The position numbers and the translations under genes were made by a program. Shown here one piece after another: positions 8,552 to 47,357 of a DNA stretch of 64,000 nucleotides. The stretch's first letter is position 1. Each line of letters begins with the position of its first letter. The DNA is from Candidatus Binatia bacterium (GTDB taxonomy: Bacteria; Desulfobacterota; Binatia; HRBIN30). The notes beneath the pieces were generated by a model. It was not told the origin of the DNA and did not search any database. It saw nothing but the letters and a program-made list of their open reading frames with translations. The stretch covers positions 1,721 through 65,720 of the forward strand of contig JAKLJW010000008.1 in the NCBI GenBank assembly GCA_023150935.1, in the 5' to 3' direction.

Positions 8552-9502
8552 TCAACAGCCCGTCGCACGATCGAGGAGCGGCACCGCCGCGTTCGCTACC
8601 AGAACCGCCAACGCCGCACCGTCGGGGTAAGGAGTGTAGTAGCGCACCGCCATCGTATAGACCGCCGCGAGCACCGCGAAGATCACCCGCCCCCGGGCCG
8701 AGAACGGCGCGGTCACCGGATCGGTGAGCATGAAGAAGGCCGCCAGCAAAGCGCCGCCGGATAGCAACTGCGCCAACGCATCCCCCGCCAGCCACGGGGC
8801 GTGCCCTGCCATTCTCGCGCCCGGCGGAAGAACCAATGCCAGCAACGCCACCCCGGCCAGATACGTCAACGGCACACGCCAATCGACGGTCCGCATCAGG
8901 ATCAAGCATAACCCGCCGCCGAGCACCGCCAGCGGCGCCGCCTCGGCAAGCGCGCCCGGGTGAAGCCCGAACAACAACTCCCTCACCCCCGGTGCCACCG
9001 CACCGATCTCCTTCGCCAACGGCGTCGCCGCACTCACCCCGTCGACACCCGACCACGCCGGCGCAAGGAGCCGCGCCGGAACGATGCCCATGAGAACCAC
9101 CCGCCCCACCGCCGCCGGGTTGAACACGTTGTTGCCGAGACCGCCGAACAGGTGCTTGCCGACGAGAATCGCCGCCGCCGCACCCACCGGCCCAAGCCAG
9201 ATCGGCCCACTTGCCGGCATCGACAGCGCCGTAACAATCCCCGCAACCACGGCACTGCCGTCGAACGCTCGCCGCGCATCGCACGCCAGGTCGAATACCC
9301 ACGCCACCACCACGGCCAGACCGAGCGGCACGGCCGCCGCCGTTCCGTATCGCCAGATCGCCACCACACAAATCGGCAATAGCGCCAGCACCACTTCGAA
9401 CATCAGCCGCCGCAGAGTCCGCCCGCTATGGAGGAACGGACCCGTCACCTCGCCGGCCGCGGCGGTCGGTTTCATCCATGCCGGCGGTCGCGCATCGGTC
9501 AT
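8552..9502 (-). CDS. rnfD: Rnf/Nqr-type complex subunit D (RnfD/NqrB family)
   Basis: GGLGNNVFNPA motif, multi-TM layout, and C-terminal SAATPL (FMN-attachment Thr context). ATG 9502 overlaps the stop of the upstream gene (ATGA). Confidence 0.8.
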   Translation of the reverse strand: MTDARPPAWMKPTAAAGEVTGPFLHSGRTLRRLMFEVVLALLPICVVAIWRYGTAAAVPLGLAVVVAWVFDLACDARRAFDGSAVVAGIVTALSMPASGPIWLGPVGAAAAILVGKHLFGGLGNNVFNPAAVGRVVLMGIVPARLLAPAWSGVDGVSAATPLAKEIGAVAPGVRELLFGLHPGALAEAAPLAVLGGGLCLILMRTVDWRVPLTYLAGVALLALVLPPGARMAGHAPWLAGDALAQLLSGGALLAAFFMLTDPVTAPFSARGRVIFAVLAAVYTMAVRYYTPYPDGAALAVLVANAAVPLLDRATGC

Positions 9503-10297
9503 CGGAACACGTACGCCAGCGGCTGAAGCGCAAAGTACACGATCGCACACGCCGCCAGACCCATCGGCACGCCCTGTAACCGCACCGCCACTTCGTCACC
9601 GAACTGCAACCGCTCGACAATCGCATCGACCAGAGCCGTCGCCGCCACCCACAGCGCCATGGCTCGCAGCACTTCCCCGACACCTTCGTACTCCGGCACG
9701 GCAAGCACCAGAGCCACGGGCGCAACCCGGGGCGCCGCCAGCACGATCAGGCCCGCCGCCAGCGGGAATCCCAACCCGGCCGGCCACGGCCCAATGGCAC
9801 CCGCCCAGGCAATCGCCGGCGCCAGCACCGCCACCCAGCGACCCGGCCCCGGCCCGATCGACACGGCAACCGCGACGGCCAGGAAGACCAGGTCATACGC
9901 GGTCACGAGGTCTCCCGAGCGCAACGATCGCCACCGCGCACCCCAGCAGCAGCACGCCCGCCGTGCGGAATTGCAGCGGCACAAACAGCGCGACTGGCGG
10001 CCCGGCGACGGCCGCTACCAGTAGATTAGGCCACCGTCCCGCCAGTAGACCCGCCGCAACGATCGCCATCGCATTCACCCCCGGAACCACCGCCGCAGAC
10101 GCCCACGCCACGGCAATCCAGCGCAGAGGCGAGGCGTTCGCAACCGCTGCGCCAACGACCAGCGCCGCCGACCAGGCCAGCGCTCCCGACCACGACAGAT
10201 CGGCCACCGCCGGCAACAACGCAGCGACGACCCCGGCGCCTATCCACGCCTCCGACACCGGCACCGCCAACGCGCCAGCCGACTCGCCCGAGTTCAC
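9499..10297 (-). CDS. Rnf membrane subunit of the RnfA/RnfE (NqrD/E) family; reading frame switches within ~9896-10014
   Basis: N-terminal part: GTG 10297 (GTGA overlap with the rnfG stop) runs to TGA 9893. C-terminal part is in another frame, open 10014..9499, with its stop overlapping the rnfD ATG. The combined ~266 codons are polytopic. Only about 800 bp lie between rnfG and rnfD, which fits one A/E-type subunit, not two. Confidence 0.5.
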
Positions 10298-10776
10298 GGA
10301 GTCACCGCCTTCCATGCCTGCAGCCGTTCGTTGACGGCATCCACGACGCGCTGAGAGGACACCGTCGCACCGGTCACCGTGTGTACCACGAGAGGCGGCG
10401 TTGCCGCCCGGCCGCGGAACCGCTCGAGGAAGTCGCTCCGAAGCAGCGCGGTCCGATCGACTCCTTCGTGCCCGCGCACGAGCAGGACTTGCTCGATACC
10501 CCCTTCATCGACGACCACCGCGCCGCGCACGGGACCCTGCACACCGACGACATCGAAGAACAGCACCGCCGCCGAGCCGGCCCGGAACGCCGGCGGCCCG
10601 GACACGGCGACCGGCTCGACCGGACCGATCAGCGACTCCGCCAGTCGACGCGCAGCGTCGGGTCGCGGCAACGCCACGTTGAGTCCCAGTGCGCACGCCA
10701 GGAGCACGGCCCCCAGCCGATCCGCTCGCCCCACACCGGCCATGACCGCGGTCCGGACGCGGCTCGCCACAGTCAT
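10294..10776 (-). CDS. rnfG: Rnf subunit G (FMN-binding domain)
   Basis: C-terminal VHTVTGATVSSQRVVDAVNERL matches the RnfG/NqrC FMN_bind SGAT motif. ATG 10776 overlaps the rnfC TGA (ATGA). Confidence 0.75.
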   Translation of the reverse strand: MTVASRVRTAVMAGVGRADRLGAVLLACALGLNVALPRPDAARRLAESLIGPVEPVAVSGPPAFRAGSAAVLFFDVVGVQGPVRGAVVVDEGGIEQVLLVRGHEGVDRTALLRSDFLERFRGRAATPPLVVHTVTGATVSSQRVVDAVNERLQAWKAVTP

Positions 10777-11900
10777 GCACAACCCCCGGCCACGCGCGCG
10801 ACGAAATCGCGCTTCAGCACCCGCATGCGCGCCACCAGACGCCGCTCGGAAGGACAGACGAATTCGCACAGACCGCACTCGACACAATCGAGCACGGCCG
10901 CGGTCGGCCGCCGGATCAACCGGCTAACCGGCAGCTCGAACGGACAAGCCGCAAGGCACCGCCCGCACCTCACGCAACGCTCGTCCCGCCGTCCACTCAC
11001 CTCGTCGTGCGTCAGCGCCAGCACGGCAATCGTGCCGGCGGCGATCGGCGTCTCCGGCGCCGCGGCGTATCCCATCATCGGCCCACCGCAGATAACCGCC
11101 GCGACCCGCTCCATGTCGACCTCACAGCTCGCCAGTACGTGTCCGACCTCGGTGCCGATCGGAACGACGTAGTTGCCCGGCCGGCCGACGGCGCCCCCGT
11201 CCACGGTGATCACACGATCGACCAGGGGACGGCGTTCGTTGACCGCACGGTGGATCGCCCGGATCGTCTGCACGTTCAGCACCACGGCCCCGACCGCAGG
11301 CGGACGACCGCCCCGCGGCACCTCGCGCGCAAGCGTTCGACGAACGAGCATGCGCTCGTCGCCTCCCGGGTAGCCGCGATCGTCATCCACCACCAGCGCG
11401 CGCGCGGCGCCGACCGCCGCAACCGCCAACCCGGCCCCCGCCTCGATCTCCGCGCCATGCTCGGCAAGCACCCGGCTGTCGCAGGTCACGTACGGTTCGC
11501 TTTGCAGCGCGTTGACGACCACCGTATCGAGGCCCGGCCGCGAGGCGACGCGCGAGAGCTTGAGGTAAGTGGGAAACATCGCCCCGCCCATGCCCACCAC
11601 TCCGGCATCGCGCACGGCGTCGACGACATCCGCACCACGGGCAAGCGGCCGCACGACGTCCGGCTCGCCCGCAACCGCGATCTCGCCGCCGACGCCGACC
11701 ACGGTCCCGGATAGCGGCGAATGGACGCGCAACTGCCATGCGGCGCCTTGCGCCGATCGCGCCAGCAGGTCGCCGGCGCGGACGCGGTCGCCCGACTGCA
11801 CGACGCAGTGCAGGTCTCGCACCGGCAGGCGAACCAGCGGCGGCGCCACCAGCGGCGCGATGCGCGAGTCCGCCGTGCGCTTGCGAGCAGGTATTCTCAC
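10773..11900 (-). CDS. rnfC: Rnf subunit C (2x[4Fe-4S] ferredoxin motifs)
   Basis: GMGGAMFPTYLKL (RnfC core) and two CxxCxxCxxxCP motifs (CVRCGRCLAACP, CVECGLCEFVCP). GTG 11900 overlaps the cytochrome TGA (GTGA). Confidence 0.8.
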   Translation of the reverse strand: MRIPARKRTADSRIAPLVAPPLVRLPVRDLHCVVQSGDRVRAGDLLARSAQGAAWQLRVHSPLSGTVVGVGGEIAVAGEPDVVRPLARGADVVDAVRDAGVVGMGGAMFPTYLKLSRVASRPGLDTVVVNALQSEPYVTCDSRVLAEHGAEIEAGAGLAVAAVGAARALVVDDDRGYPGGDERMLVRRTLAREVPRGGRPPAVGAVVLNVQTIRAIHRAVNERRPLVDRVITVDGGAVGRPGNYVVPIGTEVGHVLASCEVDMERVAAVICGGPMMGYAAAPETPIAAGTIAVLALTHDEVSGRRDERCVRCGRCLAACPFELPVSRLIRRPTAAVLDCVECGLCEFVCPSERRLVARMRVLKRDFVARVAGGCA

Positions 11901-12430
11901 GGTGCCCACTCCTCGATGCGATGGCACTCGGCACATTGCGCGGCGAAGTATTCCGCGTGGCATTCGAGGCACCCCGCGCCCCGTTCGAGCCCGGCGCTCG
12001 CATGTTCCTGTCGCGCACGCCGGTCCCGTCCCGGATCGCGTACCGATTCGGTATGCCACGGCGGCACCTGCCTGACGTGGCAGTCGCGGCACTGCTCGGT
12101 CCGATGGCAGCCAAGGCACTGAGGGCGATCGGCTACCGCCGCGGCGCCGTGGGTCAGCGTCACGAACGCCGCGTCGTGCGTGGCCTGCACGCGGCCCCGG
12201 TGGCACTCGGCGCAACCCTGCGACGCCTCGCCACCGCGCGGGACGGGATCGCGACGAACTGCATTGACGCCCGCCCAGGCAAACGCCGCGACCAGCACAA
12301 CGCCGGCCAGTCCCGTCGCCGCCACGGGTCCGAGCATGCCCCTACCGGCTCGCCCGAGAACGGCGGCCGAGCCCGGAGCAGGAAGCCTCGCGCGGAGACG
12401 ACGCGCGTTCGTTTCGAAGTCCGTGCCCAT
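11897..12430 (-). CDS. Membrane-anchored pentahaem c-type cytochrome
   Basis: One N-terminal TM helix, then five CxxCH motifs (CAECH, CLGCH, CRDCH, CLECH, CAECH) in about 120 aa. Start is uncertain: ATG 12430 or TTG 12469. Confidence 0.65.
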   Translation of the reverse strand: MGTDFETNARRLRARLPAPGSAAVLGRAGRGMLGPVAATGLAGVVLVAAFAWAGVNAVRRDPVPRGGEASQGCAECHRGRVQATHDAAFVTLTHGAAAVADRPQCLGCHRTEQCRDCHVRQVPPWHTESVRDPGRDRRARQEHASAGLERGAGCLECHAEYFAAQCAECHRIEEWAP

Positions 12431-12559
12431 GCCCGGGTACCGTGTTCCCCGATCGGAGCGGTTTTTCAACCCGCCCGCAGCCCGAAGCGATCCGCGCCGT
12501 CGCCCCCGCGGGTCCGCCGAGCGACTCCTCGCCGGGCGGCATATCGACGCCCGCGGCGG

Positions 12560-15500
12560 CTAGCGCGGAACGCCGAGATCGATCCAGCGTACAACGGCCG
12601 CCAGCTCCTGCTCCGAAAGAGGATGCGCCGACGGATGCGGCCGGTCCCCTGCGATCGCGCCCGGTGCGTGCAACTCCCGACCCAGCAACTTCTCCGTCAG
12701 AGCGCTCTCGATCGCCAGTCCCTCGCCCGCCGTGTATCGGCGCAACGCCTCGTACGCCTCCGTGCCGGTCAGGTTCACCCCCGCCGCAGGGTCTTTGCCC
12801 GCGTGGCAGCTCGCACAACGCGCCTCGACGATCGGCCGCACATCGGTGTCGAAACTCGCCTCGCGCAACTCCACGGGTCCGTCGCCCGACCAGTTCGCAG
12901 GCATACGGCCCGTACCGCTTTCCTGGCTCCAGTTCGCCAGCGTCCGCGACGCCGAAGTCATCGCGTCGGGCCGGCGCAGGGTATCGGCCGGCCTCCCCGT
13001 CAGTCCGCCGTGACAGCCCCCACAGGTCTGCGCGAAGAGACGCCGCGGAATCGACAGGGTGTGCAGCTCGCCCGGCTGCGCGTACAGCCAGCGGTTCGGC
13101 GAACGCAACGCCATGCCCCGGCCGTTCAGCGACTGGAGGTCGAAAGCGAGCCCCGACGGCACCGCGGCGTAGAACGAACCGTCGGGTTCGAGCGGCAGCT
13201 CCGCGATAGTGACGCGCCTGTCGTCGCGCCATCCCACCAGTCTGACCCCCTGCACCTGATCGACGTCGGGCGTTTCCGTACCGCAGATCGGGCAGCTCGC
13301 CGTCGCGATGTGACGAGGCCCCACCGGCACGATCTGCTCGAAGAACGCATCGAGCAGCGGCAGGTCGGCCACGTGCAAGACGGCCGGCGTTCCTTCCGGA
13401 TAGCCGGCAAAGCCGCGCACGACCGCCGGCGCCCCGAACAGTCTCTCCTGCCGCAGCAACGACTTGCCCACCGGCTCCTTAAGACGGGCAACGACCGGGC
13501 GCGGCCACAGCTCGGAGTCGGGACCCCCGATCGTCGGCTCGCGCCGGAAAGCGCCGGGGGCGAACCCGTCCGGGGTCTGCCACGCCGGCGCCGGTACAAG
13601 TCGAAAGATGTCGAAGTCGGGATCGGCCCCCGCATCGGTCAGATCCAATGGCCCCTGCGCCCATGCAACAACGACGCTCCCGTCGGGCATCGGGAAAGGA
13701 TCGCGGTACGCACCGCCGGCCGACACACCGCGGGCCGCAGCCGTTGCATCGAGCGCCAACCACCCCGGCACGAAGCGCGGCAGCGACGTCACCGGCGTGC
13801 CGGTCGCATACGGATGATCGAGATTGTCGGTGGGGTTGTCGGCCTCGATCGTCGGGCCGAACTGGTGATCGGAAAGAATCAGACTGCCGCCCCACCACGA
13901 ATCGGCGTCACGGCCGATGCGGACCTCGAGGCCGTTCGGCAACTCGCGGTCGTCGGCGAAGATCGGCACTCCCGAACGGTTGCCGTTGTGGGTGTGGAAG
14001 TTCGAGCCGTCGACGTGGGTGCGGAACAACGCGCCGTTGAAGAACGGCCGGCCGTCCTGTTCTCCGGTACGCAGCGACGTGAACACGATCTCGCCCGACG
14101 ATCTCATCGTCGGACGCCTGACCTGACTCGGCGAGTAGGTCATACGCCGCAGCGTCGACCGCAACGTCTCCCGTTCCTGCCCCGGCGCCGCCAGTCGCAT
14201 ACGATAAGCGTCGAAACACGGCGCCAAGCGCGGCGTGCCTTCGATCACGTAGTGCGTCGTCGAGTCGATCGCGCGCGGCAGGGGCGCGTCGAGCAGCAGC
14301 TTCCCGGTTTCGTGACGCCGGACACGCCGCAGCGCTCCGGCGTTGCTGCCGCGAACGAAACGCACGGTACGACCGTCGTAGGCGCCCGCTCGCTCGGTGA
14401 GCTGGTCGTCGAGCAGCGCCGTCGAGCTGCCACCCTCGGCCTCGCCGAGGCGGCCGGCCGGACTCGACCGGCAAGCGCCCGCGTCGAGATTGGAGACGAA
14501 CACCAGCGCCGCGCGCGACAGGTCGTCGCCGTCACGGTCGTCCGGGTCCGGCACGTACAACGGATCGAGGAAGTGTACCGCCGGATCGGTCGAGAACGTC
14601 AATTGCCGCGCGGCACCGGTCGCGAGTTCGATCTCCCACAAGTCGAACGGTTCCTCCGCCGACCGGCGCATCGCAAAGACCACGCGGCGGGCGTCATAGC
14701 TCACCGCGGGCGCGCGCACGTCGGCCGCGGTGCCCTTGTGCAGGCCGGCCGTGAGGTTGACCTCCTCGCCGTCGCTGCGCCGCCAGTAGAGATCGCCCCC
14801 CGGCAGAAAGGTCAGGTCCTCGAAGAACCGTTCGGGGGAGTGACGTGGCCGGCGCACGAACACGAAGCCCCGCACCTCGCCGAGGGCGGCCGCCGTCCGC
14901 CGGCGGGCATCCTCGGCTTCGAGCCGCAGCCATTCGACCAGTAACCGGTAATCGGGATCGTCCTTGCGGAAAAAGTCGTTCCCGCCCTTGTGCACGATGC
15001 CGCCCTGCTCGACCGGGATGTTCTTGAGCAGTTGCTTCGACTGCTCGACGTCGCCGTCGAGCGCGACGAGCCGGGTGACCTTGCCGAGCATCGCCTGCCG
15101 GTTCGCACGGTGCATCGCGCCGGAAAACCGCGCCGGCAGGGCCGGCATACCGGCATCCAGCTTGAGGTCGTTGAAGGCCAGCTCGCCGTGGCAGTTGGCG
15201 CCCAGGCAGGTCTTGCGCACGAGGATCGGCGCGACCCGGCCGGCGAAGAACTCCTCGGTGGCACTCGGCGGGGACGGTGCGGACTGACGGGTGCGCGCCT
15301 CGACCTCGAGCCAGGCAACCAGTTCCGCGTAATCCGGGTCGTCGGGCGAGGCGAACACCTCCGGATGCCGCCAGTACCCGGAGTAGGCGGTCGCCAGCGG
15401 GGCGCGGGCAAGGAGACTTGCGGCCGGCGTTCCCGGATCGATCGGGCGCAGCGTGCGCGTCTGAGTCTCCCGGATCCGGGTACACCGATCGTAAGCGGCA

Positions 15501-15808
15501 CGCCGCTGGTCGGCCGAACCGATCCGACCTCGGTCGTCGGTGGGCCATTGCAGCAGCGCCGGCGCAGCGGCCTCCTCCTCCATCGCCCGGTAGCGCGCTT
15601 CGCGGACACCGTGACAGCCGCCGCAGCGCCGATCGAGGACGGGCACGACGCGCTCGCCGAACCGCGCCTCGGAATCCTCTTCAGCGACCGGCGGGGCATA
15701 GACCCACGGCAACCAGACCGAGCCTCCGGCGGCCGCGATCACAGCGCCGATTCCCAGTAAGGCGAGGGCCACGCCGCGCCGGCGTCTATGCGGTCGGGGC
15801 TCGATCAT
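12560..15808 (-). CDS. Large (~1080 aa) exported multi-domain protein: three c-type haem motifs plus PD40/TolB-like beta-propeller region
   Basis: CGGCHG twice and CASCHAG (CxxCH), each in a (V)RPIL…C..CH context resembling planctomycete-type cytochrome domains. Propeller-like repeats in the middle and an N-terminal TM/signal. ATG 15808 overlaps the apbE TGA. Upstream codons (to 16495) are an Arg-rich artefact overlapping apbE. Confidence 0.6.
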   Translation of the reverse strand: MIEPRPHRRRRGVALALLGIGAVIAAAGGSVWLPWVYAPPVAEEDSEARFGERVVPVLDRRCGGCHGVREARYRAMEEEAAAPALLQWPTDDRGRIGSADQRRAAYDRCTRIRETQTRTLRPIDPGTPAASLLARAPLATAYSGYWRHPEVFASPDDPDYAELVAWLEVEARTRQSAPSPPSATEEFFAGRVAPILVRKTCLGANCHGELAFNDLKLDAGMPALPARFSGAMHRANRQAMLGKVTRLVALDGDVEQSKQLLKNIPVEQGGIVHKGGNDFFRKDDPDYRLLVEWLRLEAEDARRRTAAALGEVRGFVFVRRPRHSPERFFEDLTFLPGGDLYWRRSDGEEVNLTAGLHKGTAADVRAPAVSYDARRVVFAMRRSAEEPFDLWEIELATGAARQLTFSTDPAVHFLDPLYVPDPDDRDGDDLSRAALVFVSNLDAGACRSSPAGRLGEAEGGSSTALLDDQLTERAGAYDGRTVRFVRGSNAGALRRVRRHETGKLLLDAPLPRAIDSTTHYVIEGTPRLAPCFDAYRMRLAAPGQERETLRSTLRRMTYSPSQVRRPTMRSSGEIVFTSLRTGEQDGRPFFNGALFRTHVDGSNFHTHNGNRSGVPIFADDRELPNGLEVRIGRDADSWWGGSLILSDHQFGPTIEADNPTDNLDHPYATGTPVTSLPRFVPGWLALDATAAARGVSAGGAYRDPFPMPDGSVVVAWAQGPLDLTDAGADPDFDIFRLVPAPAWQTPDGFAPGAFRREPTIGGPDSELWPRPVVARLKEPVGKSLLRQERLFGAPAVVRGFAGYPEGTPAVLHVADLPLLDAFFEQIVPVGPRHIATASCPICGTETPDVDQVQGVRLVGWRDDRRVTIAELPLEPDGSFYAAVPSGLAFDLQSLNGRGMALRSPNRWLYAQPGELHTLSIPRRLFAQTCGGCHGGLTGRPADTLRRPDAMTSASRTLANWSQESGTGRMPANWSGDGPVELREASFDTDVRPIVEARCASCHAGKDPAAGVNLTGTEAYEALRRYTAGEGLAIESALTEKLLGRELHAPGAIAGDRPHPSAHPLSEQELAAVVRWIDLGVPR

Positions 15809-16851
15809 CGCAGCCATTGCAAGCGGTCGCCTTCGAGACGCAGGCCCCGCGACAGATGTACTCGGCCATCGCGATCGACGGCGAGAGCCTCGACGTCCGG
15901 CAGTGCGTCGGCCAGCGCAATCCCCCGTTCCCAGCCGAGCACGGCGATCGCGGTAGCCAGCGCGTCGGCGGCGGTGCCGTTGCCGGCGATCGCGGTCGCA
16001 CCGGTCACTTCGCGTGCCGGCCAGCCGGTGCGCAGGTCGACGATATGCTGATAGCGCGTGCCATCGACGGCGAAGAACCGTTCGTAGTCGCCGGAAGTGG
16101 CGATCGCGCAGTCGGTGGCCGGGAGCGTTGCGAGCAGGGTGTCGCGGCGCGGATCGCGCACCCCGACGATCCACGGGGCACCGTCCCGAGAGCCGCCGAC
16201 GACGACGTCGCCACCCGCATCGACGATGAAATTCGGGAAGCCGATCTGCCGCAGCCGCGCGGCCATGCGGTCGGCGGCGAAGCCCTTGCCGATGGCGCCG
16301 AAGCCGAGCTTCATGCCCGCACGGGCAAGGCCGATGCGGGCGCCTTCCTGCCGAATGCCCCGGTAGCCGACCAGTGCCTGGCGTGCGGCGATTTCCGCGC
16401 CGGCCGGCAGCCTTCGGGTCAGCCGCGCCCGCTCCCACAACTCGAAGAGCGGTCCCCCGGTGACGTCGAAGGCGCCGTCGCTGCGGCGCGCCCATTCAAT
16501 CGATCGCTCTACCAGCTCCTGCAGTTCGGGTCCGACGGCCACCGTCGCGGCCCCGGCCGCGGCATTGATCGCCGACGTCTCGCTGCCCGGCTGCCACTCG
16601 CTGATGCGCGCCTCGATCGCGGCGGCCAGGTCGAGCGCCTCGTTGGCGGCCGCGGCCGCGCGCGGCTGAGCGCCCGCTTCCGCCCACACCGACACCTCCA
16701 CCAGCGTACCCATCATGGGCCGCGCCACCCGGACGATCGCTCCGGCCGAACCGGGCCGGCCGCGCCGCTCGGCAACGCCGAGCGCGACCAGCACGGCAAC
16801 GCCCACCGCGACCGCCGCTATTCGATAGATAGGACGTACCGTGTCAGGCAT
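15805..16851 (-). CDS. apbE: FAD:protein FMN transferase (ApbE family)
   Basis: GAIGKGFAADRMAARL, DAGGDVVVGG and TSGDYERFF motifs. Signal/TM at the N-terminus. Start ATG 16851 verified codon-by-codon (MPDTVRPIYRIA…). Confidence 0.8.
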   Translation of the reverse strand: MPDTVRPIYRIAAVAVGVAVLVALGVAERRGRPGSAGAIVRVARPMMGTLVEVSVWAEAGAQPRAAAAANEALDLAAAIEARISEWQPGSETSAINAAAGAATVAVGPELQELVERSIEWARRSDGAFDVTGGPLFELWERARLTRRLPAGAEIAARQALVGYRGIRQEGARIGLARAGMKLGFGAIGKGFAADRMAARLRQIGFPNFIVDAGGDVVVGGSRDGAPWIVGVRDPRRDTLLATLPATDCAIATSGDYERFFAVDGTRYQHIVDLRTGWPAREVTGATAIAGNGTAADALATAIAVLGWERGIALADALPDVEALAVDRDGRVHLSRGLRLEGDRLQWLR

Positions 16852-19800
16852 TCGATATCCCAGACGGTCAGGTGCGACGTGACGCCGTGTGTGTCCGGCA
16901 ACCCGTCCCGCTCGTTGAGTCCCCGCTCGCGTTGGTCGGGCCGGTCGGCGTCGGGCCGCGGAGCCGGCAGGCGGCCCAGCGCGGGATGGTCGGGAGTGCA
17001 GAGCACCTCGCGCAAGCTGACCGCGTGTCCGTGGTGCAGAAACCGCGGCGGCCGCGCCCACAGGCCGCGCAGCGACGGCGCCACGAAGAACCCTTCGCGC
17101 TCCTCGACGCGCCCGCCATCGTCCGGATCCCAGGGGCGAACGTAGCCGTTGATCGCGTCGATCCGGTCAGCGCTGACGAGGGTGTGCGCGTCGTCTCGGG
17201 CGGCCGGTGTGACGAGCGGCGGGAAGGCCCGGTTCTGATTGTACGCGTGTTGTTTGTCGGTAAAGGCCGGCGCCGGATGACAGCCGGCGCAGCCGACCCG
17301 CGGGCTTTCGAACAGCGCCCGTCCGTGCCGCACCATCGGGTCGCCGGGATCGACCGGGTTGGGCAGCAGGCGCGGCTCGCCGCGCTGGTAGTCGCCGATG
17401 AACTTCTGCAGCTCGCGGAACGAGTAGGCGCGGCCGAGGTATCTTGCCGAGATCCGTGCAAAGTGCCGGTCGCGCCGCTTGAGCAGGTCGGCCAGCGTCA
17501 CGCCTTCCCGGTTCCACGCCCGGCCGGTGGCAACCACGATCGTGTCGGCCGAGGTCGCGTAACGGGCGGCGTCCTCGGCGGTGACACGGATGCCGTCGAA
17601 ATCGCCCGCCGGCGTGTGCCCCTGGAAGTCGACCAGCGGGTTGTGCTCCATCATCATGGTCAAGGGCTCGTCGATCGACAGTGTGCCTTCGACGAAGAAG
17701 GGGACCTTCTGAACCAGCGCCCGGAGGTCGGGAACCTCACGGCTGCCTCCCGTACGCTCGTCGCCGTGGCGGCTCTGGCCCATAACCTGGCTGACGCTCC
17801 ACTGCTTCCCGTCGGAGGTATCGCGGTAATGGCAATGAACGCAGCTCTGATCCTGGTCGACCGAGAACACGCTGGTCTGCACGAAGAACTCGCCGCGTTC
17901 GAAGTCAGTGGCCGGGAACGCTTGGGGTAGCCGCGATACCGAGCGGGTGACGGTTGTACCGTCGCGCATATCGACGAACGTGACGCTCTCGTCGAGGTGG
18001 TTGGCGACCACCAGCGTCGACCCGGCGACCGCCAGACCCGTAGGTTTGAGGCCGGTGGCGAAGACGCGACCGGGGCGCAGTCGCCCGGACGGCGGCGCAT
18101 CGACCGAAACGTGCCATTCCTGCACTTCGAAGGTGCCCGACATGGAGACGAACAGGCGGTCGCCGTCCGCGGCGATCTGTTCCGGGAAGGCGCCGGCGAC
18201 GCGCAGAAGATCCGGCGGCAGATCGCCTTTGACGTCGCCGGGAAGGGCTTCGAACGAATCGGACGTGTAGCGAGTGAAGGTCTCCGAAGCCGTGTACACA
18301 TCGACGCGCTCAGCGCCCGGATCGAGGATGACGATGTCGTTGCCGATGTCGCGGAACTTCTCCTGCGCGGTGCCGTCGACGGCATCGAACCGACCGAGCG
18401 GCCGTTGCCTGTCGAGCGGCAGCGGCCGGGCCGTGGCGGGATCGCGCCACAGCGTGAAATCGGCGTTCGGCTCGCGGGAATCGAGGCTCTCGCGACCGGC
18501 GTCGTGGTCGCCAGGGTGTCCCGAACCGACGTTGAGCGTGGCGAACACGAGTCGGCCTCGCGCCCAGGCGATGTCGTTGACCGGCGAACGGGTGAAGATG
18601 CGCCGCGTCTCGCGCCGCGAGCCGAGATCGACCACCGACACGTCGAGCGACCCGGTGTTGGCGACGTACAGCGTGCTGCCGTCCGGCGCGATGGCCATGT
18701 CGCGCGGTTTGTCGCCGACGGAGATGCCAGGCCCCTCGGTGCCGTCGGCGATCCAACGGCGCAGCGCTGCGAAGTCGGGATCGCGGTCCGGTTCCGGAAA
18801 CACGACGCCGCCGGGGTGATGCTTGCCGTCGATGCTGTCGGCACGGCCACCGTGACGCGTTGCGGTCACCGCAAGGAGAAGCGGACTGAGTTCCGGCGCT
18901 CCGGCGCGCGCGTGGACGACCGTGCTCCGAAAGATCTGCCGGTCGTCGCGACCGGCATAGAACCCGCCGGCCGCATAGAGGTGGCAGCTCGCCGTGCCGC
19001 AGCGGGCGCGCAGGACGCCTTTGATGCCGTCGGGACCGCCCGTTTGCGGGGGCGGGGCGATTTCCTCGAGCGGGGCGAAGCCGCAGCGCACGCACCGGGT
19101 CGCCGCCGGGTTGGCATCGCGCCATCCACACATGGGACACTTGCGCCACCCGGTCGGGTGGCGCCGTGGCGTACCGAAAAACCGGCGGCGGTCGAAACCC
19201 AGCTCGCGCAGCCGACCGGAGAGCCGGTCGTCGTCCCACGTCAGGTCGACCACGAGCACCTGGTTCGTCCAGAAGTTCGAGACGTAGACCGTGCGCCCAT
19301 CCGGCGCGAAGATCAGATCCTCGGCGTAGAACGGCACGGGGATGCTGGAGACGACGCGGTCGGTGGCGACGTCGATCACGGATAGGTAGTTGGAGAATCG
19401 ATTGGTGACGACGACCCAGCGACCCGTGGGGTGCAGAGCGATTCCGTACGGGTGGGACCCGACGGCGACGCGGCCGATCTCGCGCCGGCGGGGCACGTCG
19501 AAGACAACGACCTCCGACCCCGGAGCGATCTCCTTGCCGGCGAGCGTCACGTAGGCCCTGGCACCGTCGAGGGTGGCCGCGACGCGGTAAGGCCGGGTGC
19601 GAAGCGGCTGGCGGGGCAGCGACGGATCGGGGTTGGCGACGGGCAACAGGTTCCGGGGCGCCTCCGGGGCCGAGCTATCGTCGGGCGTGCCTGCAAGGTC
19701 AACCGGCGGTGCCACCGGCACCGCCCGCCCGGCATCGTGGTTGCCGGCAGAATTACGGTACAGCGAAACCCCGATGCCGGTAACGAGCGCGGCGCACGCC

Positions 19801-19892
19801 AGGACGGCGAGCCAGAGATCTCCCCTGTCTTGGCGGTCGATCGGCCGCCGTCGAGGGCGAGGGATTCGACTTGATCCCGGAAGCTCGAACAT
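16818..19892 (-). CDS. Large (~1020 aa) exported protein: YVTN-type beta-propeller repeats, zinc-ribbon, and C-terminal di-haem cytochrome c peroxidase (CCP/MauG)-family domain
   Basis: YVTLAG/VVVTN/VYVSN repeats. CPMCGW…CVRCGF zinc ribbon. CVHCH and CAGCH motifs about 170 aa apart. C-terminal …APSLRGLWARPPRFLHHGHAVSLREVL matches the CCP-family PSLRN…PYFHDG…TLEEVV motif. Ends with TAG at 16818-16820. Confidence 0.6.
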   Translation of the reverse strand: MFELPGSSRIPRPRRRPIDRQDRGDLWLAVLACAALVTGIGVSLYRNSAGNHDAGRAVPVAPPVDLAGTPDDSSAPEAPRNLLPVANPDPSLPRQPLRTRPYRVAATLDGARAYVTLAGKEIAPGSEVVVFDVPRRREIGRVAVGSHPYGIALHPTGRWVVVTNRFSNYLSVIDVATDRVVSSIPVPFYAEDLIFAPDGRTVYVSNFWTNQVLVVDLTWDDDRLSGRLRELGFDRRRFFGTPRRHPTGWRKCPMCGWRDANPAATRCVRCGFAPLEEIAPPPQTGGPDGIKGVLRARCGTASCHLYAAGGFYAGRDDRQIFRSTVVHARAGAPELSPLLLAVTATRHGGRADSIDGKHHPGGVVFPEPDRDPDFAALRRWIADGTEGPGISVGDKPRDMAIAPDGSTLYVANTGSLDVSVVDLGSRRETRRIFTRSPVNDIAWARGRLVFATLNVGSGHPGDHDAGRESLDSREPNADFTLWRDPATARPLPLDRQRPLGRFDAVDGTAQEKFRDIGNDIVILDPGAERVDVYTASETFTRYTSDSFEALPGDVKGDLPPDLLRVAGAFPEQIAADGDRLFVSMSGTFEVQEWHVSVDAPPSGRLRPGRVFATGLKPTGLAVAGSTLVVANHLDESVTFVDMRDGTTVTRSVSRLPQAFPATDFERGEFFVQTSVFSVDQDQSCVHCHYRDTSDGKQWSVSQVMGQSRHGDERTGGSREVPDLRALVQKVPFFVEGTLSIDEPLTMMMEHNPLVDFQGHTPAGDFDGIRVTAEDAARYATSADTIVVATGRAWNREGVTLADLLKRRDRHFARISARYLGRAYSFRELQKFIGDYQRGEPRLLPNPVDPGDPMVRHGRALFESPRVGCAGCHPAPAFTDKQHAYNQNRAFPPLVTPAARDDAHTLVSADRIDAINGYVRPWDPDDGGRVEEREGFFVAPSLRGLWARPPRFLHHGHAVSLREVLCTPDHPALGRLPAPRPDADRPDQRERGLNERDGLPDTHGVTSHLTVWDIECLTRYVLSIE

Positions 19893-32309: not shown

Positions 32310-32403
32310 GGCGGAGGAGGAAGGGAGTCGAACCCTCCGTCCGACTTGCGCCGGACCACGCGGTTTTGAAGACCGGGGAGGCCACCGGGCCCCATCCTCC
32401 TCC
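32310..32403 (-). tRNA. selC: tRNA-Sec (selenocysteine tRNA, anticodon UCA)
   Basis: Hand-folded. 8-bp acceptor stem (GGAGGAGG/CCTCCTCC). 6-bp D-stem with 4-nt loop. 6-bp anticodon stem (one C·C mismatch) with loop CUUCAAA, identical to the E. coli tRNA-Sec loop. Long variable arm (5-bp stem). 5-bp T-stem with GTTCGACTC T-loop. Discriminator G. CCA is not encoded. Confidence 0.8.
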
Positions 32404-45296: not shown

Positions 45297-47357
45297 TCAG
45301 AGGCCGAGCAGTTCCCGCACCGAGCGAGCCGCGCCGGCCGCCGTAACGCCGTACTTCTCGAAGATCAGGTCGCCCGGCGCCGAACTGCCGAACCGATCCA
45401 CGCCGATGGCGCGGCCATGAGCGCCAATCCAGCGCTCCCAGCCGAGCGTGACCCCGGCCTCGATCGACACCCGGGCGGCCACGTTGCGCGGCAGGACGGT
45501 CTCCCGATACTCGGCACTCTGCGCCGCAAACAGCTCCCACGACGGCATCGACACGACGCGCACGCGGAGGCCGTCGCGCGCCAGCGCCGCGCGCGCCGCC
45601 AACGCCACCTCGACTTCGGAACCGGTGGCGATCAGGATCGCCTGCGGGGCGCCGCCTGCTGACTCGGCAATGACGTACGCACCGCGATCTAATCCACCGC
45701 CCGGGAGCGCCTCGCGACGATCGAGAACCGGCACCTTCTGCCTGGTCAATATAAGGGCCACGGGTCCATCGCGGTATGCCATCGTCCACCGCCATGCCGC
45801 CGCGGTTTCGAAGGCATCCGCCGGGCGGATGACCGTAAGGCCGGGAATTACCCGCAACGACATGAGCTGCTCAACGGGCTGGTGAGTGGGTCCGTCCTCG
45901 CCGACACCGATCGAGTCGTGTGTCCACACGTAGATGACCGGCAGCGCGTTCAACGCCGCCAGCCGCACCGGCGGGCGCATGTAATCCGAGAAGCAGAAAA
46001 ACGTCGCCGCAAACGCGCGCAGGCCGCCGTGATAGGCGATACCGTTGATCGCCGCTCCCATGACGTGTTCGCGCACGCCGAAGTGCAGGTTGCGACCCGC
46101 ACCGGTCTGCCCGTCGAACGAACCGCCATCGGCGATCGCGGTCATCGTCGAGCTGGACAGATCGGCATCGCCGCCCACCAGCCACGGCACCCGCGCGGCA
46201 ACGGCGTTCATCGCCTTGCCGGCCGCAACCCGCGTCGCCACGGCGTCGCCTACCTTCCATACCGGCAACTGGCCGTCCCAGCCGTCCGGGAGTTCTCCGC
46301 GCCCGGCGCACCGCCACTCCCGCGCAAGGTCGGGGTACGCCGCCGCCCAGCTATCGAAACGTTTCTGCCACTCCGCCTGCAACCGGGCACCGCGATCGAC
46401 CGCGCCGCGGAAGTGTGCCAGCGCCGCCTCGGGAACCAGAAACTTCTCCTCCGGATCGAAGCCGAGGTTAGTCTTGGTCAGCGCGACTTCCTCGACGCCG
46501 AGCGGGCTACCGTGCGCCTCGGACTTGCCCTGCTTGTGTGGCGCGCCGTAGCCGATCGTCGTTTCGACGATAATCAAACTCGGCCGTTCGGCGTCGGCCT
46601 CCGCGGCGGTCAGCGCGTTGTCGATCGCCGCGGTGTCGGTGTTGCCGTCGGCGACGCGCAGCACCTGCCATCCGTAGGCGGCGTAGCGCGCGGCGACGTC
46701 TTCGCGGGAAAAGGCCAGGGTGGTCGGCCCGTCGAGGGACACGTGGTTGCTGTCGTAGACGACGATCAACTTGCCCAGCCGCAGGTGGCCGGCGAGCGAG
46801 GCGGCTTCGGCGGAGACGCCTTCCATCAGGTCGCCATCGGAGGCCAGCACGTAGGTCCGATGGTCGACGATCCGATGCCCCGGTCGGTTGAAGCGATGCG
46901 CGAGCATGCGCTCGGCTATCGCCATGCCGAGGGCATTCCCGGTCCCCTGCCCCAGCGGCCCGGTCGTGGCCTCGACTCCCGGGGTCAAGAGCATCTCCGG
47001 ATGCCCGGGCGTGCGACTCTCCCACTGCCGGAAGGCGAGCAGGTCGTCCATCGACACGGCGTAGCCCGTGAGGTGAAGCAGCGCGTAGAGGAGCATCGAC
47101 CCGTGCCCGGCCGACAACACGAAACGGTCGCGGTCCGGCCACGACGGATCGGCGGGGTTATGACGCAGATGTCGCTGCCAGAGCACGTAGGCGGCGGGCG
47201 CCGCTCCGAGAGGAAGCCCGGGATGCCCCGAGCCGGCCTTCTGGATGGCGTCGATCGCCAGGGTCCGGATTGTATTGATGCACAGACGCTCGGTTTCTCT
47301 ATCGTCCCCTGCCACTTGCCCCGGCTCCGTCGTCGCGAGATGCGGGTCTCCTAGCAA
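45297..47357 (-). CDS. tkt: Transketolase
   Basis: GSGHPG thiamine-diphosphate motif, GDGDLMEG, and C-terminal transketolase domain. The exact start within the first ~30 codons is uncertain. Confidence 0.85.

What the first reader, a model, noticed from the sequence alone, without database searches (positions are those of the whole stretch)
8552..19892. Non-canonical cytochrome-coupled Rnf-type cluster: two giant beta-propeller/haem proteins, ApbE, a pentahaem cytochrome and rnfC-G-(A/E)-D
Nine consecutive minus-strand genes are joined by stop-start overlaps. They are: a ~1020-aa YVTN-propeller/CCP-type di-haem protein, an ApbE flavin transferase, a ~1080-aa tri-haem/PD40 protein, a membrane pentahaem cytochrome, then RnfC, RnfG, one RnfA/E-type subunit and RnfD. 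Canonical Rnf operons encode six subunits (A, B, C, D, G, E) in the order ABCDGE or CDGEAB. Here rnfB and one of rnfA/rnfE are absent from the cluster, the order is C-G-X-D, and haem proteins occupy the position where some anaerobes carry a multihaem cytochrome (MmcA in Methanosarcina, DhcA in Desulfovibrio). ApbE is the enzyme that flavinylates RnfG/RnfD. The combination of an Rnf core with about 11 c-type haems and two >1000-aa periplasmic propeller proteins is not a described architecture that I recognise. It suggests a periplasm-facing electron conduit, for example peroxide or extracellular-acceptor reduction, driven by an Rnf-like ion pump.
Basis: partly seen in the sequence, partly recalled or inferred. 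Interest (0 to 1): 0.85.

Follow-up and report, generated by a model that had tools for sequence, protein, structure and literature searches.

The report
Hydrazine-synthase-like haem enzyme on a half-Rnf
A nine-gene operon in an uncultured Binatia bacterium, conserved across at least seven other bacterial lineages, joins distant relatives of the anammox enzyme hydrazine synthase to a cut-down Rnf complex that most likely carries electrons between cytoplasmic NADH and the periplasm; I found no description of this combination, and its chemistry is unknown.

Summary
Window 8552-19892 (minus strand) holds nine intact genes, and seven of the eight junctions overlap.

The Rnf assignment holds for RnfC and RnfD, which pass the NCBIfam cut-offs, and for an RnfG-type FMN_bind protein. 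One small membrane protein is a truncated, cysteine-less RnfA remnant. A second has no detectable relatives. RnfB and RnfE are absent.

They are distant homologues of hydrazine synthase (HZS). G3 matches HZS-alpha and G1 matches an HZS-beta-gamma fusion. Both lack the catalytic hallmarks of true HZS.

There are 12 haem c motifs (3 + 4 + 5).

The cassette keeps the same gene order in MAGs of Acidobacteriota, Planctomycetota, Verrucomicrobiota, Myxococcota, Gammaproteobacteria and Bacteroidota. A more distant HZS-like pair is linked to an RnfD-NuoF fusion and a homologue of the same small cytochrome, which independently supports the wiring.

Best reading: NADH -> RnfC -> RnfD-FMN -> RnfG-FMN -> pentahaem -> HZS-like enzyme in the periplasm. 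The substrate is unknown; a small nitrogen oxide is my leading guess. An ion-pump role is not supported.

I found no paper describing this architecture.

The parts
16818..19892 (-). G1, 1024 aa (an upstream ATG at 19973 would give 1051 aa). It has an N-terminal membrane anchor, a seven-bladed YVTN propeller with an inserted CX4CH haem domain (plus a 4-Cys knuckle), and a C-terminal di-haem domain. It is a homologue of an HZS beta-gamma fusion. Three haem c motifs: C298x4C303H, C684xxC687H, C868xxC871H.
   Evidence: - Sequence families.
- Family profile against PDB sequences: HZS-beta 1.2e-21 and HZS-gamma 2.9e-10.
- Gamma-domain profile alone: HZS-gamma 2.4e-11, best CCP 0.014.
- AF2 model: pLDDT 78.9, pTM 0.81.
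- Foldseek top hit 5c2v_B, 3.7e-17.
- Invariant haem motifs.
15805..16851 (-). G2, 348 aa. ApbE flavin transferase with an N-terminal anchor.
   Evidence: Pfam ApbE, E = 1.7e-77. ApbE sits between G1 and G3 in most related loci, is absent from that position in some, and is fused to G3 in P0043.
12560..15817 (-). G3, 1085 aa. It has an N-terminal anchor, a ~300-aa two-haem extension, a TolB/PD40-like propeller, an HZS_alpha middle domain and a C-terminal cytochrome c domain. It is a homologue of HZS-alpha. Four haem c motifs: C65xxC68H, C204x4C209H, C932xxC935H, C1001xxC1004H.
   Evidence: - Pfam HZS_alpha and NCBIfam hydrazine_alpha, both weak.
- Family profile against PDB sequences: 5c2v_A at 5.4e-28, collinear over the propeller, middle and haem domains. 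Nothing else scores below 0.005.
- AF2 model: pLDDT 87.7, pTM 0.87.
- Foldseek: 5c2v_A at 2.8e-25 over 919 columns; the next hit is TolB at 3e-10.
11897..12430 (-). G4, 146-190 aa depending on the start codon. Membrane-anchored small pentahaem cytochrome c with five invariant CxxCH motifs and conserved extra histidines.
   Evidence: - Pfam Cytochrome_C7, weak.
- The family alignment A7 has five invariant CxxCH motifs, and H54, H63 and H112 are also invariant.
- No NapC, NrfH or CymA match in PDB sequences.
- A homologue sits in the second architecture, L038 (hhalign 98.8%, 8.5e-17).
10773..11900 (-). G5, 375 aa from GTG 11900 (396 aa from ATG 11963). RnfC: cytoplasmic, with an NADH/FMN site and two [4Fe-4S] motifs.
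   Evidence: - TIGR01945 rnfC, 266 bits, above the cut-off; Pfam RnfC_N, Complex1_51K, SLBB and Fer4.
- E. coli RsxC tblastn, 6.7e-38.
- The GMGG(A/G)xFPT loop is largely conserved across 24 orthologues. The cysteines of both CxxCxxCxxxCP motifs are conserved in all but one (L006 has Ala at one cysteine position); the final Pro varies in a few.
- No hydrophobic segment.
10294..10776 (-). G6, 160 aa. RnfG/NqrC-type FMN_bind protein with a flavinylation motif [ST]GA[TS](V/I)SS (T137).
   Evidence: - Pfam FMN_bind, 27.9 bits, above the cut-off.
- hhalign against E. coli RsxG: P = 0.0016 over 118 columns, including the flavinylation motif.
- The motif is conserved in 21 orthologues.
9893..10315 (-). 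G7, 140 aa. Polytopic membrane protein of unknown family. It is variable and is missing from some related loci.
   Evidence: No match in Pfam, NCBIfam, PDB sequences or hhalign against RsxA, RsxE or G8. Absent in L001, L004, L011 and L019.
9499..9906 (-). G8, 135 aa. Polytopic membrane protein, probably a truncated RnfA-derived remnant corresponding to roughly the C-terminal 100 residues of RnfA. It has no conserved cysteine.
   Evidence: - Family profile against PDB sequences: the only real hit is A. woodii RnfA (9eri_A), E = 8.3e-5, residues 80-183.
- hhalign against E. coli RsxA: P = 3.4e-4 and 5.9e-4 on the last two helices; nothing against RsxE.
- No Pfam hit.
- Only 29 clusters of ~130-aa proteins among 1.84 billion representatives.
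8552..9502 (-). G9, 316 aa. RnfD, with the flavinylation site D-G-x-[ST]-x-A-[ST]-P-L conserved (T159).
   Evidence: - Pfam NQR2_RnfD_RnfE, 6.9e-80; TIGR01946 rnfD, 212.5 bits, above the cut-off.
- RsxD tblastn, 4.6e-38.
- The motif is conserved in 15 orthologues.

Best explanation
The locus encodes one membrane-bound redox machine made of two modules.

Module 1 is half of an Rnf complex. It keeps RnfC (cytoplasmic NADH/FMN site and two [4Fe-4S] clusters), RnfD (membrane, covalent FMN) and an RnfG-type subunit (periplasmic covalent FMN). ApbE, encoded in the operon, attaches the flavins. The ferredoxin branch is gone: there is no RnfB and no RnfE, and RnfA survives only as a cysteine-free stub (G8).

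Module 2 is periplasmic and anchored to the membrane. It comprises a small pentahaem cytochrome (G4) and a heterocomplex of G3 (HZS-alpha-like, 4 haems) with G1 (HZS-beta-gamma-like, 3 haems).

The most likely electron path is NADH -> RnfC -> RnfD-FMN -> RnfG-FMN -> G4 haems -> entry haems of G3/G1 -> two catalytic haems. This delivers low-potential electrons to the periplasm without passing through the quinone pool.

What is shown: the parts, their cofactor motifs, their homologies and their strict co-inheritance.

What is inferred: complex formation, the electron path and its direction.

What is guessed: the substrate. My leading candidate, at roughly one in three, is a small nitrogen oxide such as NO or hydroxylamine. 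It is not a true hydrazine synthase, and there is no evidence that it pumps ions.
For: - RnfC and RnfD pass curated family cut-offs. FMN_bind and ApbE are present.
- The NADH/FMN loop, both FeS motifs and both flavinylation motifs are conserved in 15-25 orthologues, with one cysteine substitution in L006.
- In Rnf and Nqr, RnfC, RnfD and RnfG make up exactly the branch that joins the periplasmic flavins to cytoplasmic NAD(H) (review PMC12174285).
- G1-G4 and ApbE each have a single N-terminal hydrophobic segment, and G1, G3 and G4 carry haem c motifs, so they are periplasmic. G5 has no such segment.
- HZS homology is shown by profile searches and predicted folds.
- Gene order G1-(ApbE)-G3-G4-G5-G6-(G7)-G8-G9 is kept in related loci from six other named lineages. 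rnfD was detected in 19 fetched loci and is missing at only one locus whose contig extends far enough, L027.
- Independent second wiring in L038: a 38%-identical HZS-like pair is followed by a G4 homologue, an RnfD-Complex1_51K-NADH_4Fe-4S fusion that keeps the flavinylation site, and a NuoG-like FeS protein.
- Still more distant pairs sit with ApbE or DUF3570, a family already linked to flavinylation in PMC8238504.
- The electron-entry haems of true HZS titrate near -330 mV, close to the NAD+/NADH couple (PMC12607021).
- A related concept exists: two-subunit 'Nqr/Rnf-like' systems proposed to pass electrons from NAD(P)H outwards (PMC8238504, PMC10979944).
Against: - There is no experimental datum. 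Complex formation between modules was not modelled.
- The direction of electron flow is not fixed by sequence. With entry haems near NADH potential, either direction is feasible.
- Neighbouring genes give almost no functional hint. A census of 111 flanking genes in 16 loci found only a recurrent two-component system. NnrS appears in two closely related loci and NnrU in one.
- The HZS catalytic hallmarks are absent. There is no Cys between the two gamma-type haem motifs, and a Thr or Ser stands where HZS-alpha has its Tyr591 ligand. Analogy to HZS chemistry is therefore weak.
- G7 is unexplained.
- One locus (L027) lacks the rnfD end.
Confidence: 0.6

Rival explanations
1. Same machine run in reverse. 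The HZS-like periplasmic enzyme oxidises a low-potential substrate (for example hydroxylamine, hydrazine or another reduced small molecule). The electrons pass through the haems and flavins to RnfC and reduce NAD+, making NADH directly from a periplasmic oxidation.
For: - Rnf's RnfG-RnfD-RnfC branch normally carries electrons towards NAD+ (PMC12174285).
- HZS entry haems lie near -330 mV, so the chain is close to isopotential with NAD(H).
- Nothing in the sequence fixes the direction.
Against: - It needs a donor well below -320 mV.
- The carriers are mostly lineages known as heterotrophs (my own knowledge). No lithotrophy genes recur near the cassette.
- The related two-subunit Nqr/Rnf-like systems are proposed to run outwards.
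Confidence: 0.15
2. An NADH-driven periplasmic peroxidase. The di-haem domain of G1 works like a bacterial cytochrome c peroxidase or MauG, and the system detoxifies H2O2, or uses it for an oxidation.
For: - HZS-gamma and G1's C-terminal domain belong to the CCP/MauG fold class.
- Pfam CCP_MauG gives a sub-threshold hit, E = 0.0055.
- A CCP chain is the second-best PDB sequence match, E = 0.014.
- Many carriers are probably aerobes (my own knowledge).
Against: - The match to HZS-gamma is about nine orders of magnitude better than to any CCP. It includes the C-terminal D-x-HG-x-TSHL motif that CCPs did not match.
- A peroxidase does not need a second 1085-aa HZS-alpha-like haem protein, which is strictly co-inherited.
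- Known CCPs take electrons from small cytochromes or cupredoxins rather than from NADH through flavins (my own knowledge).
Confidence: 0.15
3. A normal ion-pumping Rnf complex whose missing subunits (RnfB, RnfE, full-length RnfA) are encoded elsewhere. The cytochromes would be accessory electron outlets, as with MmcA in Methanosarcina.
For: - RnfC and RnfD are bona fide family members.
- Rnf complexes with an added multihaem cytochrome exist (PMC12174285).
- Only 64 kb of the genome could be inspected.
Against: - In 19 fetched loci from seven lineages the cassette never includes rnfB or rnfE.
- The position of rnfA/E is occupied by a ~130-aa cysteine-free remnant that forms its own tight family.
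- The second architecture fuses RnfD directly to a NuoF-like NADH module and also lacks RnfA, RnfB and RnfE.
Confidence: 0.07
4. A genuine hydrazine synthase, meaning a cryptic anammox-type N-N bond-forming pathway outside the Brocadiia.
For: Both HZS subunit types are present, adjacent and co-inherited.
Against: - Identity to HZS is 13-22% in the structural alignments.
- The gammaCys165 equivalent is absent: G1 has no Cys between H688 and C868.
- Position +4 after the alpha-I-type CxxCH is Thr or Ser, not the Tyr ligand.
- Hagglund et al. reached the same conclusion for other HZS-like clades (PMC12758564).
- No hydrazine dehydrogenase lies near any locus.
Confidence: 0.02

Closest known systems
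Anammox hydrazine synthase, HZS-alpha/beta/gamma (Kuenenia stuttgartiensis, PDB 5C2V)
   Same: G3 is collinear with HZS-alpha across the propeller, the middle haem domain and the C-terminal haem domain. G1 is a beta-type seven-bladed propeller followed by a gamma-type di-haem domain, like the fused beta-gamma of Scalindua. The two genes are adjacent, and a membrane-bound electron-transfer module is encoded alongside them.
   Different: - Identity is only 13-22%.
- There are extra haems: two in an N-terminal extension of G3 and one inserted in the G1 propeller.
- There is no third covalent Cys and no Tyr ligand.
- Both proteins carry membrane anchors.
- Electron supply comes from an Rnf-derived NADH module. 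In Kuenenia, as I recall and did not check here, the hzs cluster is accompanied by a membrane-bound cytochrome electron-transfer module.
- The hosts are not anammox bacteria.
HZS-like alpha + beta-gamma pairs outside anammox (clades I-IV of Hagglund et al. 2025, PMC12758564; 'hzs-like' genes of PMC10732223)
   Same: They are distant, co-located alpha and fused beta-gamma homologues that lack the HZS key residues, with function unknown.
   Different: - Those clades came from RefSeq genomes. They have alpha upstream of beta-gamma (clades I-III) and neighbours of the FG-GAP/CRTAC1 and ABC-binding-protein types. Neither paper mentions an Rnf-type module in the text I searched; ApbE was not among my search terms in either.
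- Here the order is beta-gamma, (ApbE), alpha, and an Rnf-derived module follows. All members found are from MAGs.
Two-subunit 'Nqr/Rnf-like' flavinylated systems (Meheust et al. 2021, PMC8238504; Huang et al. 2024, PMC10979944)
   Same: They are a partial Rnf/Nqr apparatus that keeps a single transmembrane path, associated with ApbE and proposed to move electrons from NAD(P)H to an extracytosolic acceptor.
   Different: - Those systems have RnfD fused to a PF00175 NAD-binding domain plus an RnfG-like subunit.
- The RnfD flavinylation Thr is not conserved in them.
- They occur mainly in Actinobacteria and CPR, and no terminal enzyme is defined.
- Here RnfC is a separate FeS flavoprotein, the RnfD flavinylation site is conserved, an RnfA remnant persists, and a defined 12-haem terminal module is attached.
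Canonical Rnf (RnfABCDGE), and Rnf with an extra multihaem cytochrome (MmcA of Methanosarcina acetivorans)
   Same: RnfC, RnfD and RnfG-type subunits, dependence on ApbE, and a c-type cytochrome encoded with the rnf genes.
   Different: - There is no RnfB and no RnfE. RnfA is truncated and lacks the [2Fe-2S] cysteines, so no ferredoxin branch is encoded in the cluster and the RnfA/E coupling unit is missing.
- The gene order is C-G-x-A'-D.
- The cytochrome is an unrelated small pentahaem.

Membership tests
Rnf complex (RnfABCDGE) | RnfC subunit with an NADH/FMN site and two [4Fe-4S] clusters | tested here: met
   TIGR01945 scores 266 bits against a cut-off of 246. The motifs are conserved in 24 orthologues, apart from one cysteine substitution in L006.
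Rnf complex (RnfABCDGE) | RnfD subunit with a flavinylated Thr in [ST]xA[ST]PL | tested here: met
   TIGR01946 scores 212.5 bits against a cut-off of 207. The motif is conserved in 15 orthologues. Flavin attachment itself was not tested.
Rnf complex (RnfABCDGE) | RnfG subunit: membrane-anchored periplasmic FMN_bind domain with an SGAT motif | tested here: met
   Pfam FMN_bind is above its cut-off. hhalign against RsxG gives P = 0.0016. The motif is conserved. The NCBIfam rnfG models are not reached.
Rnf complex (RnfABCDGE) | RnfA-RnfE heterodimer holding an intramembrane [2Fe-2S] cluster through four cysteines | tested here: not met
   Only a ~135-aa RnfA-like remnant (G8) is present. It matches RnfA residues 80-183 at E = 8.3e-5 and has no conserved Cys. 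There is no RnfE homologue in the window.
Rnf complex (RnfABCDGE) | RnfB polyferredoxin subunit | tested here: not met
   RsxB gives no significant tblastn hit in the 64-kb window. No rnfB gene was identified in the cassette in any related locus. The rest of the genome could not be searched.
Hydrazine synthase (HZS) | Alpha subunit architecture: propeller + middle haem domain + C-terminal haem domain | tested here: met
   Profile against 5c2v_A gives 5.4e-28 and is collinear. Foldseek gives 2.8e-25 over 919 columns.
Hydrazine synthase (HZS) | Beta seven-bladed propeller plus gamma di-haem subunit | tested here: met
Hydrazine synthase (HZS) | Third covalent haem link from gammaCys165 at the gamma-I active site | tested here: not met
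   G1 has no cysteine between H688 and C868.
Hydrazine synthase (HZS) | Haem alpha-I ligated by Tyr591 (CxxCH-x3-Y), with the His diverted to zinc | tested here: not met
   Position +4 after H936 is Thr in 19, Ser in 13 and Asn in 1 of 33 family members.
Hydrazine synthase (HZS) | NCBIfam equivalog scores for hydrazine_alpha, _beta, _gamma and _BC | tested here: not met
   Scores of 18-57 bits against cut-offs of 560-1250.
Hydrazine synthase (HZS) | Hydrazine production, and co-occurrence with hydrazine dehydrogenase | not testable with these tools
   No HAO/HDH-type gene lies in the window region or in the loci inspected. Whole genomes were not available.
Bacterial di-haem cytochrome c peroxidase / MauG | Pfam CCP_MauG above the gathering score | tested here: not met
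   17.8 bits against a cut-off of 25.6. The best CCP chain scores E = 0.014, against 2.4e-11 for HZS-gamma.
Nqr/Rnf-like two-subunit system (Meheust 2021) | RnfD domain fused to a PF00175 NAD-binding domain | tested here: not met
   G9 is a stand-alone 316-aa RnfD. The distant locus L038 has an RnfD-NuoF-type fusion (Complex1_51K), which is also not PF00175.
NapC/NirT/NrfH quinol dehydrogenases (for G4) | Sequence similarity to the tetra/pentahaem NapC/NrfH family | tested here: not met
   No Pfam or NCBIfam hit to these families. The profile against PDB sequences gives only generic haem-motif matches.

The most novel reading that the evidence does not exclude
The cassette encodes a previously unrecognised periplasmic nitrogen-cycle enzyme. 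In this reading, an NADH-powered HZS-like two-site haem complex reduces NO or hydroxylamine, or forms or cleaves an N-N or N-O bond, in non-anammox bacteria spread over at least seven lineages: Binatia, Acidobacteriota, Planctomycetota, Verrucomicrobiota, Myxococcota, Gammaproteobacteria and Bacteroidota. That would be a new reaction or route in environmental nitrogen turnover. It would also be a living relative of the ancestor from which hydrazine synthase evolved.
Probability: 0.25. Interest if true: 0.9.

Novelty: new variant of a known kind. Interest (0 to 1): 0.72.

Why it matters
Hydrazine synthase was long regarded as unique to anammox bacteria. Distant homologues were reported only recently, and nothing was known about how they are supplied with electrons.

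This cassette gives those homologues a defined partner: an ApbE-flavinylated half-Rnf that links them to cytoplasmic NAD(H). That makes their function directly testable, because the nine genes could be expressed together and fed NADH plus candidate substrates.

It also shows a new way in which the Rnf/Nqr machinery has been dismantled and reused. The NAD(H)-side branch (RnfC-RnfD-RnfG) is kept as a transmembrane wire, and the ferredoxin branch decays to a stub.

The spread of an intact cassette across unrelated, mostly uncultured soil, groundwater and marine lineages suggests a selectable trait that moves horizontally.

Tried and rejected
- G7: no homology by Pfam, NCBIfam, PDB profile, or hhalign against RsxA, RsxE or G8. 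It remains unexplained.
- G8 as a Pfam Rnf-Nqr member: none of 11 members hit that family. A single-sequence search of 1.84 billion representatives found only 29 proteins, nearly all ~105-146 aa (one of 193 aa), and no obvious full-length RnfA/E. The RnfA link rests on profile-level evidence only.
- Function from neighbours: the Pfam census of 111 flanking genes gave only a recurrent histidine kinase and response regulator. NnrS and NnrU are too rare to use.
- Promoter and terminator scans were uninformative in this 68-70% GC DNA.
- Rfam found nothing in or near the cluster.
- G4 as a NapC/NrfH-type quinol dehydrogenase: rejected.
- An MshEN-like reading of the N-terminal extension of some G7 orthologues was not confirmed by Pfam.
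- A search for a second rnfABE locus was possible only within the window and was negative.
- Alignment A1 was too diverse for the locus search. A narrower alignment was used instead.

Full report
**What is in the window**

The region 8552-19892 carries nine intact minus-strand ORFs with the GC3 > GC1 > GC2 pattern of real genes in this 68-70% GC DNA. I call them G1 to G9, from 19892 down to 8552.

Seven of the eight junctions are stop-start overlaps of 4-34 nt. The exception is G3>G4, a gap of 90-222 nt depending on which G4 start is used. G5 most likely starts at GTG 11900, giving a 4-nt overlap. An independent gene call on an identical public contig uses the same start.

The flanks are unrelated: an AcrB efflux pump upstream and L,D-transpeptidases downstream. 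The rest of the window is ordinary chromosome, with proA, transketolase and an acyl-CoA synthetase. The transketolase is 100% identical to an NCBI protein from a 'Candidatus Binatia bacterium', so the window comes from an uncultured Binatota genome.

**The Rnf-derived half**

- G5 is RnfC. TIGR01945 scores 266 bits against a cut-off of 246, and Pfam finds RnfC_N, Complex1_51K, SLBB and two Fer4 motifs.
- G9 is RnfD. TIGR01946 scores 212.5 bits against a cut-off of 207.
- G6 carries an FMN_bind domain above the Pfam cut-off.
- G2 is ApbE.

E. coli RsxC and RsxD hit only these genes in the window, at about 1e-38. RsxA, RsxB, RsxE and RsxG hit nothing. A profile of G6 orthologues aligns with RsxG over 118 columns, including the flavinylation motif (P = 0.0016).

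Across 15-25 orthologues, four features are conserved:
- the NADH/FMN loop GMGG(A/G)xFPT, with occasional substitutions;
- the cysteines of both CxxCxxCxxxCP motifs, apart from one substitution in L006;
- the RnfG-type [ST]GA[TS](V/I)SS site;
- the RnfD-type DGx[ST]xA[ST]PL site.

Two small polytopic membrane proteins lie between G6 and G9.

G8 (135 aa) has no Pfam hit. A profile of 11 orthologues finds one meaningful PDB sequence, RnfA of Acetobacterium woodii (9eri_A, E = 8.3e-5). It aligns to RnfA residues 80-183 and includes the C-terminal 'RL...vP..lRG.Pi.Ll..G' signature. Two different G8 profiles align the same region of E. coli RsxA (P = 3.4e-4 and 5.9e-4), and neither aligns RsxE. The RnfA cysteine in 'TNC' aligns to 'APRxAP', and the family has no conserved cysteine. 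So G8 looks like a truncated RnfA remnant that cannot hold the [2Fe-2S] cluster. It forms a tight family of only 29 clusters of ~130-aa proteins among 1.84 billion representatives.

G7 (140 aa) has no detectable relatives and is missing from some related loci.

**The haem half**

G3 (1085 aa) has the Pfam HZS_alpha middle domain and a weak NCBIfam hydrazine_alpha hit.

- A profile of 33 family members matches HZS-alpha (5c2v_A) at E = 5.4e-28, collinearly over the propeller, middle domain and C-terminal haem domain. No other chain scores better than 0.005.
- A confident AF2 model (pLDDT 87.7, pTM 0.87) has HZS-alpha as its top Foldseek hit (2.8e-25, 919 columns). TolB propellers follow at 3e-10.
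- Four haem motifs are invariant: C65xxCH, C204x4CH, C932xxCH and C1001xxCH.

G1 (1024 aa) has YVTN repeats and weak hydrazine_beta, hydrazine_BC and hydrazine_gamma hits.

- Its family profile matches HZS-beta (1.2e-21) and HZS-gamma (2.9e-10) in that order.
- A profile of the C-terminal domain alone gives HZS-gamma at 2.4e-11, against 0.014 for the best cytochrome c peroxidase. The match covers both haem motifs and a shared C-terminal D-x-HG-x-TSHL motif.
- Three haem motifs are invariant or nearly so.

G4 is a small membrane-anchored cytochrome with five invariant CxxCH motifs and conserved extra histidines. It is not related to NapC, NrfH or CymA.

The total is 12 haem c motifs. G1, G2, G3 and G4 each have one N-terminal hydrophobic segment. 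G5 has none.

**Not a true hydrazine synthase**

- G1 has no cysteine between H688 and C868, so the third covalent haem link (gammaCys165) is absent.
- In G3 the residue four positions after H936 is Thr or Ser in nearly all 33 family members, not the Tyr591 ligand.
- NCBIfam equivalog scores are far below the cut-offs.

Hagglund et al. (PMC12758564) drew the same conclusion for other HZS-like clades.

**Conservation**

Homologues of G3 and G1, about 90 clusters each, are all unnamed or 'hypothetical' and come from MAGs. A scan of GTDB species representatives gave 30 loci, again all MAGs: Acidobacteria/Vicinamibacterales, Planctomycetota, Akkermansiaceae, Myxococcota, Chromatiales and other Gammaproteobacteria, Maribacter and Parabeggiatoa.

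In every locus with a G3 at least 50% identical, the order is G1-(ApbE)-G3-G4-G5-G6-(G7)-G8-G9. rnfD was detected in 19 fetched loci. It is missing at only one locus whose contig extends far enough, L027.

ApbE is absent from that position in some lineages and is fused to G3 in P0043.

Flanking genes differ from locus to locus. A Pfam census of 111 neighbours in 16 loci found only a recurrent histidine kinase and response regulator (6-8 loci). NnrS appears in two related Acidobacteria loci and NnrU in one gammaproteobacterial locus. The cassette therefore behaves as a self-contained unit that is probably mobile.

**An independent second wiring**

More distant HZS-like pairs (30-39% identity, with alpha upstream of beta-gamma) lack the RnfC/G/D genes.

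In L038, however, the pair is followed by:
- two FGE-sulfatase genes;
- a small cytochrome homologous to G4 (hhalign 98.8%, 8.5e-17);
- a 756-aa fusion of RnfD with Complex1_51K, SLBB and NADH_4Fe-4S, whose RnfD part is 32% identical to G9 and keeps the flavinylation site;
- a NuoG-like FeS protein.

Other distant pairs sit with ApbE (L033), or with DUF4266 and DUF3570 (L031) or DUF3570 (L032). DUF3570 was already linked to flavinylation-based electron transfer (PMC8238504).

So two different gene architectures join an HZS-like pair to an RnfD-type flavin conduit with a cytoplasmic NADH module. This is the strongest argument that the link is functional.

**How it most likely works**

In Rnf and Nqr, electrons cross the membrane twice. 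The RnfC-RnfD-RnfG branch connects the periplasmic flavins to cytoplasmic NAD(H). The RnfB-RnfA/E branch connects them to ferredoxin (PMC12174285).

Here only the first branch is intact. I infer the path NADH -> RnfC (FMN, 2x[4Fe-4S]) -> RnfD-FMN -> RnfG-FMN -> G4 -> G3/G1. The entry haems of true HZS titrate near -330 mV (PMC12607021), which fits a donor at NADH potential better than a quinol.

The direction is inferred, not shown. The reverse direction, periplasmic oxidation reducing NAD+, is a real alternative.

The RnfA/E unit, one of the two proposed coupling sites, is lost. That gives no basis for calling the system an ion pump, although RnfD-based translocation cannot be excluded.

The substrate is unknown. 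The HZS-gamma-like site, rare NnrS/NnrU neighbours, and FGE-sulfatase genes beside the distant pairs point weakly to a small nitrogen oxide. The FGE link rests on my recollection that NirV, encoded with nirK, belongs to that family. Peroxide is the main alternative.

**Literature**

I found no paper that combines hydrazine synthase homologues with Rnf, ApbE or flavinylation. The nearest concepts are:
- HZS-like clades I-IV (PMC12758564) and 'hzs-like' genes (PMC10732223). Neither mentions an Rnf module in the text I searched.
- The two-subunit 'Nqr/Rnf-like' systems (PMC8238504, PMC10979944). These differ in architecture and lack a defined terminal enzyme.

**Verdict**

The feature is real, conserved and apparently undescribed. 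I classify it as a new variant of known kinds: flavinylated extracytosolic electron-transfer systems and HZS-like haem enzymes. Its mechanism is plausible but untested, and its chemistry is unknown.

Noticed in passing
window 32310-32403 (-): A selenocysteine tRNA gene (Rfam 77.7 bits; ARAGORN anticodon TCA). The genome therefore probably encodes selenoproteins. The adjacent ORFs checked are an acyl-CoA dehydrogenase and a MepK-like peptidase, not selA or selB.
   Followed up: partly
window 45297-47282 (-): The transketolase is 100% identical to an NCBI 'Candidatus Binatia bacterium' protein, and the next-best named hits are also Binatia MAGs. This identifies the source lineage.
   Followed up: yes
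window 16818-19892 (-), G1 residues 252-270: A 4-Cys knuckle (CPMC...CVRC) lies inside the insertion in the G1 propeller. It is present as an indel in 19 of 33 family members. It may be a zinc- or iron-binding site in a periplasmic protein.
   Followed up: partly
L003 15427-16098; L021 15316-15915; L036 15355-15948; L028 (not separately checked): In L003, L021 and L028, G7 orthologues carry an extra N-terminal soluble extension of ~80 aa (FGRVALNLGL...EELE...). The L036 product is similarly long (197 aa). The L003, L021 and L036 products gave no Pfam match. This hints at a regulatory add-on.
   Followed up: partly
L029 16762-21832; L030 16521-20016; L037 5789-17598; L038 16755-19228: A more distant HZS-like subfamily (alpha then beta-gamma) is consistently followed by one or two FGE-sulfatase genes. 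In L029, L030 and L037 it also sits with DAHP-synthase-like genes, and in L030 and L037 with RidA-like (Ribonuc_L-PSP) genes; L029 also has ResB/CcsA. This is a second conserved context of unknown meaning.
   Followed up: partly
L031 5864-8500; L032 13160-14386; L033 17008-17904: Still more distant alpha/beta-gamma pairs are interleaved with DUF4266 and DUF3570 (L031) or DUF3570 (L032), or are followed by ApbE (L033). This again links HZS-like proteins to flavinylation-associated systems.
   Followed up: partly
L027 3696-7828: A Pirellulales MAG has G3-G4-G5-G6 but then an unrelated 1226-aa protein instead of G7-G9 (no rnfD). This may be a real truncation, a rearrangement or a misassembly.
   Followed up: no
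P0043 (1444 aa; protein): A natural fusion of the HZS-alpha-like protein with ApbE, reinforcing the functional link between the flavin transferase and this enzyme family.
   Followed up: no
L001 952-2949 (-) and L004 2534-4531 (-); L003 20565-21167: An NnrS-ScdA_N-DUF1858 fusion protein lies upstream of the cassette in two Acidobacteria MAGs, and NnrU lies nearby in a gammaproteobacterial MAG. Both families are associated with NO responses (my own knowledge), but they are too rare here to count as evidence.
   Followed up: partly
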